DNA of 64,000 nt from Escherichia coli (GCF_965641715.1 NZ_OZ282453.1), one strand, 5' to 3'. Positions 62,991 through 64,000 are shown, counted from the stretch's first letter. Numbers and translations are program-made. The notes: a model not told the origin generated them from the letters alone.

Positions 62991-63244
62991 GACATACCAA
63001 TAACTCTTGTCTAAAAAGCCAGCAAGATAAAAAGTCAGTATTCACGACCACCAGCGTGTTTACTGTACTGCACCAGGTTTACAGGTACAAAAAACCGCTC
63101 GACGGCGGGTTTAAGCTGTGTGGCGAAGTAACCACTCTTAACAGATTAAGATAAAATTTGCGGACCGCGGTAATTTTTTTTGCTAAATTAAAGCCATATA
63201 AAAAATAAGATCCATAAGAAATTATTAGTATACTAAGGTTTAAC

Positions 63245-64000
63245 ATGGCTACTATTGCGCAATCAAAGAAACAAAAAAAACTTAAAATTGGTTTTTACAC
63301 CAGCAGTTCTGGGACTATCCGCAGCCATTCAGTTGCTAAGCAAGCAATTGAAAATCTGTATAATACTTGCGTAACCGTTACGAATAATCATTTTGATACC
63401 ATCTATAGAAATAAAAAGTTAAAAATAGCTTTTATAAATAAAGATACAAAAGCTAAATATTTCTTCGGCTACATGTCATGCTCACGAGAAGAGTATCTCC
63501 TTCCTTATATTGGTGATGAACACTGGAATGAGCACAACATACCACTAGATGATAAAAAATACATAGTCGAAAGAACCTATTTTTTATATTATTACGATAG
63601 TGATATTTTAATATTAACTCAAAATCATCTTGGGCCGAAAGAATCGGATTTAGCTTATCTGCTTTACAGCCAGAGTGGTAATCCTGGAAATAACTTTTCA
63701 TTCCAAGCCATCTGGAAAAAAGAGAGCGTCAAAGAGCTACTTGAAACAGGAAGTACTTTGAGAAGTTGTGATATTGTCCTGGCTGCTCCCAGGAACTTTG
63801 ATGCAACAAATTACCAGCTAAATAGTTCATTTTCTAAGGAACTGGTAAATATGATGGTAGGGCTGGGTGGAACACGTCTCAAGTTAAATCTAAGGGGACG
63901 TGCATCAGGGAGAGTAAAAGTCAAAGGTTATTTATCAGATCTCGTTAAGGATGGTATTAAAGAACTCCTTGAAAAAATGCCGGGAATTGTAAAAAAAGCG
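63245..64000 (+). CDS. unknown low-GC ORF running off the window end (more than 250 codons with no stop), opposite strand to the phage late genes
   Basis: manual translation MATIAQSKKQKKLKIGFYTSSSGTIRSHSVAKQAIENLYNT... continues without stop to 64000; RBS taagg 8 nt upstream and -35/-10-like hexamers. Confidence 0.5.
   Translation, partial: MATIAQSKKQKKLKIGFYTSSSGTIRSHSVAKQAIENLYNTCVTVTNNHFDTIYRNKKLKIAFINKDTKAKYFFGYMSCSREEYLLPYIGDEHWNEHNIPLDDKKYIVERTYFLYYYDSDILILTQNHLGPKESDLAYLLYSQSGNPGNNFSFQAIWKKESVKELLETGSTLRSCDIVLAAPRNFDATNYQLNSSFSKELVNMMVGLGGTRLKLNLRGRASGRVKVKGYLSDLVKDGIKELLEKMPGIVKKA

What the first reader, a model, noticed from the sequence alone, without database searches (positions are those of the whole stretch)
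62991..64000. Unknown AT-rich plus-strand gene at the right edge, opposite to the phage late genes
An ORF of more than 250 codons begins at 63245 with a credible RBS and promoter-like hexamers, in DNA far more AT-rich than the surrounding phage genes, and on the opposite strand. I do not recognise the protein. Location, composition and orientation are typical of an independently expressed accessory, exclusion or defence gene, but function is unassigned and the 3' end is outside the window.
Basis: inference. Interest (0 to 1): 0.6.

Follow-up and report, generated by a model that had tools for sequence, protein, structure and literature searches.

The report
Distant RexA/RexB-like prophage exclusion cassette
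The AT-rich gene at the right edge is real and encodes a distant relative of phage lambda's RexA; a RexB-like membrane protein gene follows just outside the window, so this is most likely a prophage two-gene system that aborts infection by other phages, a known kind of system in a protein family (DUF6731) not linked to it in any paper or library I searched.

Summary
An ORF starts at ATG 63245 and stays open for 252 codons to the window end, in DNA of about 35% GC, on the strand opposite the phage genes. Identical DNA in E. coli EC416 and in phage cdtI (orf54/orf53) completes it. The gene encodes 313 aa ('DUF6731 family protein'). A 147-aa membrane protein gene starts 3 nt later, followed by a terminator hairpin and a convergent antiterminator Q gene.

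PADLOC's RexA/RexB models, Pfam RexA and PHROGs do not recognise either protein. No searched paper mentions DUF6731.

Verdict: a new, distant member of the Rex-type exclusion systems, sitting in the Q/late-region slot rather than beside cI. Function is inferred, not tested.

The parts
63245..64000 (+). 5' part (252 of 313 codons) of the rexA-like gene (Pfam DUF6731). The remaining 61 codons and the stop lie outside the window.
   Evidence: ORF and translation. Identical to residues 1-252 of WP_015987625.1 in E. coli EC416. Pfam DUF6731 E 2e-10. Best PDB match is lambda RexA 8twq. hhalign against the RexA family gives 87.7%, E 3.4e-6, with controls.
63235..63238 (+). Shine-Dalgarno-like AAGG, 6 nt upstream of the ATG
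   Evidence: Read directly.
63186..63244 (+). Cassette-specific upstream region of about 60 nt, the presumed site of the cassette's own promoter, which was not identified
   Evidence: Similarity to phages that lack the cassette (PhiR5_1) ends at about 63185. Different cassette alleles diverge from this point on. No promoter passes the scan.
63158..63180 (+). Context, not cassette: conserved phage-backbone hairpin GCGGACCGCGG followed by a T-run (terminator-like on the + strand). It marks the left junction of the cassette slot.
   Evidence: Terminator scan. Conserved upstream of all cassette alleles and directly downstream of Q in PhiR5_1.
63084..63106 (-). Context, not cassette: minus-strand intrinsic-terminator-like hairpin (GCCGTCGAGCGGT followed by TTTTT) of the phage backbone
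   Evidence: Terminator scan. The homologous site is annotated 'terminator' in phage Ayreon.

Best explanation
The ORF is the first gene of a self-contained two-gene cassette carried by a lambdoid prophage. It is a distant homologue of the lambda RexA/RexB exclusion system.

**Shown**
- Gene A encodes a 313-aa, basic, soluble protein of Pfam family DUF6731. Its predicted fold and sequence profile match lambda RexA over nearly the full length.
- Gene B starts 3 nt after A's stop, outside the window. It encodes a 147-aa protein with four long hydrophobic helices, the same size and layout as RexB, and a weak but above-control profile match to RexB.
- The A-then-B arrangement held in every locus where it could be checked.
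- A terminator hairpin follows B.

**Inferred mechanism, by analogy with lambda RexAB and P. putida RexABpp (PMC11077077, PMC12894663)**
- In the lysogen both proteins are made from the cassette's own promoter.
- Protein A, probably a DNA-binding dimer, senses a product or DNA-protein intermediate of an infecting phage.
- A then activates the inner-membrane protein B.
- B collapses membrane potential or integrity, which stops growth and aborts the infection, protecting the lysogenic population.
For: **Gene reality and completeness**
- ORF, translation and composition.
- Full-length intact copies in EC416, W13-16 and phage cdtI.
- This allele is in 24 of 5,426 complete E. coli genomes.

**Protein A resembles RexA**
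- The AF2 model has pLDDT 81.8.
- Foldseek top hits are 8twq_B and 8twq_A at E 1e-7 and 5e-6, then RdgC at 2e-4.
- hhalign of 177 DUF6731 sequences against 25 RexA-family sequences gives Prob 87.7%, E 3.4e-6, over 255 colinear columns (14-307 vs 2-270). The alignment pairs the N-terminal K-x-G-F-Y of both proteins and the strand-GP-x3-DL motif.
- Reversed or column-shuffled RexA controls score 13.6-25.5 against 47.5.
- Both proteins are basic: pI 9.25 and 8.61.

**Protein B resembles RexB**
- 147 aa against 144 aa, with hydrophobic segments at matching positions.
- The AF2 model has pLDDT 90.4 and four long helices.
- hhalign against the RexB family gives 61%, E 8e-5 over TM1-loop-TM2-loop, or 48.6% with E 1.8e-4. 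Controls score at most 14.7 against 32.1.
- Pairwise BLASTP gives E 0.021.

**Obligate pairing**
- 93 of 95 loci in the first set have a partner detected by HMM directly downstream. The other two carry a more diverged 148-aa protein with the same four hydrophobic segments.
- All 17 complete loci from other Proteobacteria have a hydrophobic ORF of about 140-175 aa in that position.

**Moron-like unit**
- AT-rich, on the opposite strand, with terminator hairpin AGGGCAgaaaTGCCCTTTTTT after B.
- Same slot next to a convergent Q gene in 72 of 80 IMG/VR loci, for alleles from 100% down to 43% identity.

**Experimental precedent**
Against: - No experiment on this cassette or on any DUF6731 protein was found.
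- Sequence models of RexA and RexB do not detect either protein. PADLOC finds nothing at E<=1 although its RexA/RexB models hit the lambda proteins. The Pfam scans return only DUF6731 for A and no significant family for B. PHROGs keeps them in separate 'unknown function' families.
- With shallow alignments the profile match was weak: 1% and 13% probability.
- The B-RexB match covers only about 60 columns. Small 4-TM bundles are easy to match: the AFDB search returned mostly uncharacterised proteins of about 145 aa. The only hit carrying the 'ExbB' label that NCBI gives RexB homologues was at rank 49, and I did not verify it as a RexB.
- The cassette is not in the immunity region next to cI as lambda rex is.
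- No promoter was found by scan.
- In a small sample of non-phage loci, the neighbours were mobile-element genes rather than known defence genes. The exception is L093, which has HsdR, an AAA_13 protein and an integrase nearby.
Confidence: 0.65

Rival explanations
1. Rex-like pair with reversed logic, as in mycobacteriophage Butters gp30/gp31. The cytosolic RexA-like protein would be the toxic antiphage effector, and the membrane protein would only sequester it until infection.
For: The homology evidence is the same as for the main explanation. The Butters precedent is described in PMC12894663. Nothing in the sequence shows which partner is the effector.
Against: Four of the five described Rex-like systems use the membrane protein as effector. 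The strict retention of the 4-TM partner in all 112 loci fits either role.
Confidence: 0.12
2. The RexA-like protein serves mainly the prophage's own development: a non-specific DNA-binding modulator of the lysogeny/lytic decision or of Q-dependent late transcription. This would resemble lambda RexA's RexB-independent effect on the CI-Cro switch rather than exclusion of other phages.
For: Lambda RexA has such a role. The cassette is wedged between the Q gene and the conserved block that follows Q directly in related phages.
Against: Family members also occur outside lambdoid phages and away from any Q gene, for example at a chromosomal Vibrio site, in Halomonas, and next to clpB in Marinobacterium. 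The membrane partner is always kept. The position next to Q is typical of morons.
Confidence: 0.1
3. An RdgC-like recombination or replication-restart modulator that merely shares the RdgC/RexA fold, with an unrelated small membrane protein next to it.
Confidence: 0.04
4. Not a working gene: a chance ORF or a decaying remnant.
For: The gene is cut by the window end, and no promoter was found by scan.
Against: The chance of such an ORF is about 2e-9. There are 231 clusters at 50% identity in 1.84 billion proteins. The gene is intact in all copies examined, with conserved motifs.
Confidence: 0.01

Closest known systems
Phage lambda RexA/RexB exclusion system (PDB 8TWQ; Pfam PF15969/PF15968)
   Same: - Prophage-borne two-gene unit in the order soluble protein, then membrane protein of about 145 aa with four TM helices.
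- Protein B shares RexB's size, topology and a weak profile match.
- Both A proteins are basic.

   Different: - About 13-15% identity.
- Not detected by the PADLOC, Pfam or PHROG models for RexA and RexB.
- 313 aa against 279 aa.
- It lies between Q and the late region, on the strand opposite its neighbours and with its own terminator. Lambda rex lies next to cI and is transcribed from pRM.
- Activity is untested.
Pseudomonas putida prophage P1 RexABpp (PP_5643/PP_5644), PMC12894663
   Different: It lies near the CI-like repressor. Whether PP_5643 belongs to DUF6731 could not be settled. Its primer-derived N-terminus (MHRTATFV) matches none of the 149 listed family representatives I inspected, and its DNA was not found in either collection scanned.
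Actinobacteriophage Rex-like pairs (Sbash gp30/31, CarolAnn gp44/43, Butters gp30/31)
   Same: A cytosolic RexA-like protein plus a membrane RexB-like protein on temperate phages, excluding heterotypic phages. The homologues dimerise and bind DNA non-specifically.
   Different: They have Actinobacterial hosts and were not compared by sequence here. In Butters the roles of the two proteins are reversed.
RdgC (PDB 2OWL)
   Same: Shares the two-domain beta-sheet scaffold that RexA also shares.
   Different: The match is much weaker than to RexA. RdgC is a stand-alone chromosomal gene with no membrane partner and a ring-shaped dimer with a tip domain.
Kiwa (KwaA membrane protein + KwaB DUF4868)
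   Same: A two-gene defence system that pairs a small multi-TM protein with a soluble protein of about 300 aa (from my own knowledge).

Membership tests
Pfam DUF6731 (PF20505) | Significant match to the family HMM | tested here: met
   Pfam scan E 2.1e-10 over residues 34-260. RefSeq names the protein 'DUF6731 family protein'. The profile search finds 231 clusters at E<=1e-3, nearly all 280-320 aa.
Lambda RexA family (Pfam PF15969 / PADLOC RexA / PHROG 12654) | Match to the family's sequence models | tested here: not met
   No PADLOC hit at E<=1, while lambda RexA hits PADLOC RexA at 9e-110. The Pfam scan lists no RexA. The protein falls in PHROG 7651, not 12654.
Lambda RexA family (superfamily level) | RexA fold: split globular domain interrupted by a four-stranded beta-sheet/helix dimerisation domain, in the same order along the chain | tested here: met
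Lambda RexA family (superfamily level) | Profile-profile sequence homology above controls | tested here: met
   87.7%, E 3.4e-6, score 47.5. Reversed and shuffled controls score 13.6-25.5. Shallow alignments gave only 1-13%.
Rex-type system | RexA-like gene immediately followed by a gene for a small four-TM inner-membrane protein | tested here: met
   3-nt spacing in EC416. A partner is present in 95 of 95 and 17 of 17 loci where it could be checked. Four hydrophobic segments or helices.
RexB family (Pfam PF15968 / PADLOC RexB / PHROG 14878) | Match to the family's sequence models | tested here: not met
   No significant PADLOC, Pfam or NCBIfam hit. The partner falls in PHROG 8552, not 14878.
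RexB family (superfamily level) | Profile-profile homology to RexB | tested here: inconclusive
   61% with E 8e-5, or 48.6% with E 1.8e-4, over about 60 columns (TM1 to the TM2-TM3 loop). Controls score at most 14.7 against 32.1. The structure search was not discriminating.
Rex-type system | Location in the immunity region, co-transcribed with the cI repressor | tested here: not met
   The cassette lies between antiterminator Q and the methyltransferase/tRNA/lysis genes, about 6 kb from the LexA-family repressor gene ymfK. Some accepted Rex-like systems are also separated from the repressor, so this feature is typical rather than strictly defining.
Rex-type system | RexA-like protein dimerises and binds DNA non-specifically | not testable with these tools
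   Only indirect evidence: fold similarity and a basic pI of 9.25.
Rex-type system | Both genes are required to exclude superinfecting phages, through membrane depolarisation or damage | not testable with these tools
   This needs plaque assays and membrane-potential measurements.
RdgC (Pfam PF04381) | Match to the RdgC family model; ring dimer with a tip domain | tested here: not met
Kiwa (KwaA/KwaB) | Match to KwaA/KwaB models | tested here: not met
   No PADLOC family of any kind hits either protein at E<=1. I did not verify with a positive control that PADLOC's Kiwa models work.

The most novel reading that the evidence does not exclude
DUF6731 plus its four-helix partner would form a large, previously unrecognised branch of the Rex superfamily, with 231 clusters at 50% identity spread across Gamma-, Beta- and Zetaproteobacteria. 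In E. coli prophages it would occupy a recombination hotspot between the Q gene and the late-region backbone, where alleles as different as 43% identity replace one another. It would work as an abortive-infection system that PADLOC 2.0, Pfam and PHROGs fail to flag. Because it shares only a handful of motifs with lambda RexA and RexB (N-terminal K-x-G-F-Y; strand-GP-x3-DL; the TM1-TM2 loop H-x-D; the basic TM2-TM3 loop), it would show which residues matter for the still-unknown step by which RexA activates RexB. A further possibility, not excluded, is that its position next to Q couples it to the prophage's own late-gene switch.
Probability: 0.5. Interest if true: 0.55.

Novelty: new member of a known kind. 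Interest (0 to 1): 0.45.

Why it matters
- **Few comparators so far.** Rex is the oldest known abortive-infection system, yet how RexA senses infection and switches on RexB is still unresolved. Only five Rex-like systems have been described (PMC12894663).
- **A new set of natural variants.** Linking DUF6731 and its partner to Rex gives a function-level hypothesis to a family annotated as 'unknown'. It adds hundreds of diverged variants for comparative and mutational work.
- **A gap in annotation tools.** The pair is invisible to the PADLOC 2.0, Pfam and PHROG models tested here.
- **A swapping site.** The Q-proximal slot of lambdoid prophages, where Shiga-toxin genes sit in other phages (my own knowledge), appears to exchange diverged alleles of this cassette.
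- **Practical relevance.** The carriers include porcine ETEC and the CDT-I converting phage, so the cassette may affect how susceptible these pathogens are to other phages.

Tried and rejected
- **Direct sequence annotation.** PADLOC, NCBIfam, Pfam and PHROGs gave only 'DUF6731' or 'unknown function'. Sequence searches of the PDB gave nothing meaningful.
- **Kiwa-like idea (TM protein plus a soluble protein of about 300 aa).** Rejected: no PADLOC hit, opposite gene order, and no KwaB among the structural matches.
- **Shallow profile comparisons.** A1 vs A3 and A4 vs A3 gave weak results (1% and 13%). They became convincing only with 177 sequences and controls.
- **Is P. putida RexApp (PP_5643) a DUF6731 protein?** Not resolved.
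  - The N-terminus derived from the published primers matches none of the 149 listed representatives I inspected.
  - Exact-DNA scans of genome contigs and metagenome contigs found nothing.
- **Wide-alignment genome scan.** It worked with the distant subfamily alignment A7.
- **Structure search of the partner against AFDB50.** It returned mostly uncharacterised proteins of about 145 aa, so it does not discriminate RexB from other small 4-TM bundles.
- **Guilt by association for non-phage loci.** Ten flanking proteins gave no genuine PADLOC hit; the only protein with PADLOC hits is ClpB by NCBIfam. The neighbours were an integrase, UmuC and a phage minor capsid protein, that is, mobile elements rather than defence islands.
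- **Promoter search.** No plus-strand sigma-70-like site passed the scan. The alignment of upstream regions shows only a weakly conserved -10-like hexamer.
- **Literature.** No paper mentions DUF6731, PF20505, the protein accessions or phrog_7651.

Full report
**1. The observation**

The region was read directly. An ATG at 63245-63247 opens a frame that runs without a stop to the window end, 252 codons. AAGG lies 6 nt upstream of the ATG.

GC falls from about 0.51 in the genes to the left to 0.31-0.39 from 63200 on. All neighbouring phage genes are on the minus strand.

With the region's own base composition, a 252-codon stop-free run has a probability of about 2e-9. No other frame stays open for more than 91 codons.

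The one element I could not support is the 'promoter-like hexamers'. The sigma-70 scan finds no plus-strand site upstream.

**2. Completing the gene**

Megablast against complete E. coli genomes found the window's right end at 99.4-99.9% identity over its whole length in five chromosomes.

In strain EC416 the ORF is a 313-aa 'DUF6731 family protein' (WP_015987625.1). The next features in order are:
- a 147-aa hypothetical protein gene that starts 3 nt later;
- a hairpin with a T-run (AGGGCAgaaaTGCCCTTTTTT), 23 nt between the two stop codons;
- the stop codon of a convergent antiterminator Q gene.

The window's 252 residues are identical to the N-terminus of this protein.

The same pair is orf54/orf53 of the CDT-I converting phage cdtI. 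The cassette (GC 0.344) is present at 99% identity or more in 24 of 5,426 complete E. coli genomes, mostly porcine ETEC.

RefSeq sometimes starts the second gene at an internal Met, giving 122 aa. The longer 147-aa frame is intact there too.

**3. Where it sits**

The element is a lambdoid prophage. Head, terminase, lysis genes, tRNAs and a DNA methyltransferase lie to the left. Q, DUF968, KilA-N, RusA and the replication and immunity genes lie to the right.

Window 62990-63185 is homologous to the stretch that follows the Q gene directly in phages lacking the cassette (PhiR5_1). It includes a minus-strand terminator that is annotated as such in phage Ayreon. Similarity stops at about 63185.

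Upstream regions of cassette alleles with 88% to 43% protein identity share this same backbone block and diverge from the same point. In 72 of 80 IMG/VR loci a Q homologue lies convergent within 400 bp of the second gene.

The cassette therefore occupies a fixed slot between Q and the late-region backbone, and diverged alleles replace one another there.

**4. What the proteins are**

Sequence libraries give nothing functional:
- PADLOC: no hit at E<=1.
- NCBIfam: no hit for A, and only insignificant hits (E about 0.06, far below the curated cut-offs) for the partner.
- PHROGs 7651 and 8552: 'unknown function'.
- Pfam: only DUF6731, E 2e-10.

No paper in the searched library mentions DUF6731, PF20505 or the accessions.

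*Protein A.* A 37-sequence alignment gave an AlphaFold model with pLDDT 81.8.
- Foldseek gave 8twq at E 1e-7, then RdgC at 2e-4.
- This neighbour list (RdgC, IML3, CHL4, the C. glutamicum epimerase 3oh8) is the one Adams et al. reported for RexA itself.
- Global TM-scores are low (0.35-0.39). I attribute this to a different pose of the two hinged domains; that is an inference.

*Sequence-level support for A.* The result depended on alignment depth. Comparisons with 37 or 62 sequences gave only 1% and 13% probability. A search of 1.84 billion representatives found 231 family clusters. Using 177 of those sequences, hhalign against 25 RexA-family proteins gave 87.7%, E 3.4e-6, over 255 colinear columns (14-307 vs 2-270).

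The alignment pairs the N-terminal K-x-G-F-Y of both proteins and a strand-GP-x3-DL motif. Reversed or column-shuffled RexA alignments score 13.6-25.5 against 47.5.

The predicted secondary-structure order fits RexA's published split globular domain / dimerisation domain / C-terminal helix layout. Both proteins are basic.

*Protein B.*
- 147 aa against RexB's 144, with hydrophobic segments at matching positions.
- The AlphaFold model has pLDDT 90.4 and helices at 2-22, 28-59, 75-102 and 114-146.
- Pairwise BLASTP to RexB gives E 0.021.
- hhalign of 36 partners against 15 RexB-family proteins gives 61%, E 8e-5, over TM1, the loop, TM2 and the basic loop. Controls score at most 14.7 against 32.1.
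- The AFDB search of the model returned mostly uncharacterised proteins of about 145 aa and does not discriminate.

I treat B's homology to RexB as probable, not established.

**5. The pairing is obligate**

In the 95 loci of the first set (E. coli, IMG/VR prophages, Vibrio, metagenomes), 93 have an HMM-detectable partner directly downstream. The other two have a more diverged 148-aa protein with the same four hydrophobic segments.

A genome scan with the distant subfamily found 19 further loci. The organisms include Halomonas, Vreelandella, Enterobacter, Kosakonia, Rouxiella, Stenotrophomonas, Marinobacterium, Thiohalocapsa, and Oxalobacter and Mariprofundaceae MAGs. All 17 complete loci have a hydrophobic ORF of about 140-175 aa (longest-ORF calls) in the same position.

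Neighbours in these loci are mostly mobile-element genes: an integrase, UmuC and a phage minor capsid protein. One locus sits next to HsdR, an AAA_13 protein and an integrase.

**6. Mechanism**

The gene pair, the RexA-like fold and profile, the RexB-like topology, the terminator and the moron-like composition and placement are shown.

- the lysogen expresses both proteins;
- the RexA-like protein, probably a DNA-binding dimer, detects an infecting phage's product or DNA-protein intermediate;
- it activates the membrane protein;
- the membrane protein dissipates membrane potential or integrity and aborts the infection.

I put homology of A to RexA at about 0.85, homology of B to RexB at about 0.6, and the whole functional reading at about 0.65.

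The rivals are:
- a Butters-type reversal of roles;
- a role in the prophage's own switch or late transcription;
- an RdgC-like recombination function;
- a non-functional ORF.

The last two are poorly supported.

**7. Comparison with the known**

The cassette works like a Rex system, by inference. It is not a member of the RexA or RexB sequence families as currently modelled. PADLOC's RexA and RexB HMMs hit the lambda proteins at 9e-110 and 9e-61 but not these proteins. PHROGs keeps them apart.

It also differs in location, lying by Q and the late region rather than by cI and pRM, and in being a separate convergent transcription unit.

Whether the P. putida RexApp belongs to DUF6731 could not be determined. 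That is the main uncertainty about novelty.

**8. Verdict**

It is a new, distant member of a known kind of system (Rex-type two-component exclusion), in a family that no library or paper I searched links to Rex. Interest is moderate. It is a useful, testable annotation and a comparative handle on an old unsolved mechanism, but it is not a new principle.

Noticed in passing
window 56888-57904 (-), within the AT-rich island about 56200-58200: A 338-aa ORF in a second AT-rich island (GC 0.31-0.37), between the terminase small-subunit gene and the lysis genes, resembles small-conductance mechanosensitive channels (MscS). NCBIfam gives E 2e-20, well below the curated cut-offs, and PADLOC gives no hit. 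It looks like another prophage moron encoding a membrane channel. No gene is annotated in the corresponding gap (locus 6536-7812) of the EC416 prophage.
   Followed up: partly
window 59767-59858, 61359-61435, 61438-61513 (all -): Three prophage tRNA genes. There are two tRNA-Arg(tct); the first is called at an unusual 92 nt. There is also a CAT-anticodon tRNA that ARAGORN calls Met and RefSeq annotates as Ile in the EC416 prophage.
   Followed up: no
window about 63084-63185, and L117 1501-1686: A conserved backbone block with a minus-strand terminator hairpin and a GCGGACCGCG hairpin follows the Q gene directly in phages without the cassette. In this prophage it is separated from Q by the 1.4-kb cassette. 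If the Q-dependent late promoter lies on the Q side, late transcription would run antisense through the cassette; if it lies in this block, the two units are divergent. I did not resolve this.
   Followed up: partly
L004-L007, L013-L092 (IMG/VR and E. coli loci): At least four allelic classes of the cassette (about 100, 87, 62 and 45% protein identity to the window's copy) occupy the same junction next to Q in different lambdoid prophages. The left neighbours vary: DNA methyltransferase, AraC-family regulator, or holin.
   Followed up: partly
window 62763-62990 (-): A small ORF (75 aa by the ORF list; annotated as 67-75 aa 'hypothetical protein', orf55 in phage cdtI) lies between the methyltransferase gene and the cassette. 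It has no PADLOC hit and is conserved in many lambdoid phages.
   Followed up: no
L002 9226-9594 vs L002 9151-9594: RefSeq annotates the membrane partner as 122 aa from an internal Met in some genomes and as 147 aa in others. The longer frame, which includes the first TM helix, is intact in both, so this is an annotation inconsistency and not a truncation.
   Followed up: yes
L093 3778-10694: In a metagenomic contig, a distant DUF6731 pair sits between a phage-type integrase and a type I restriction HsdR gene plus an AAA_13 ATPase gene. This is the only sampled locus with a defence-island-like neighbourhood.
   Followed up: no
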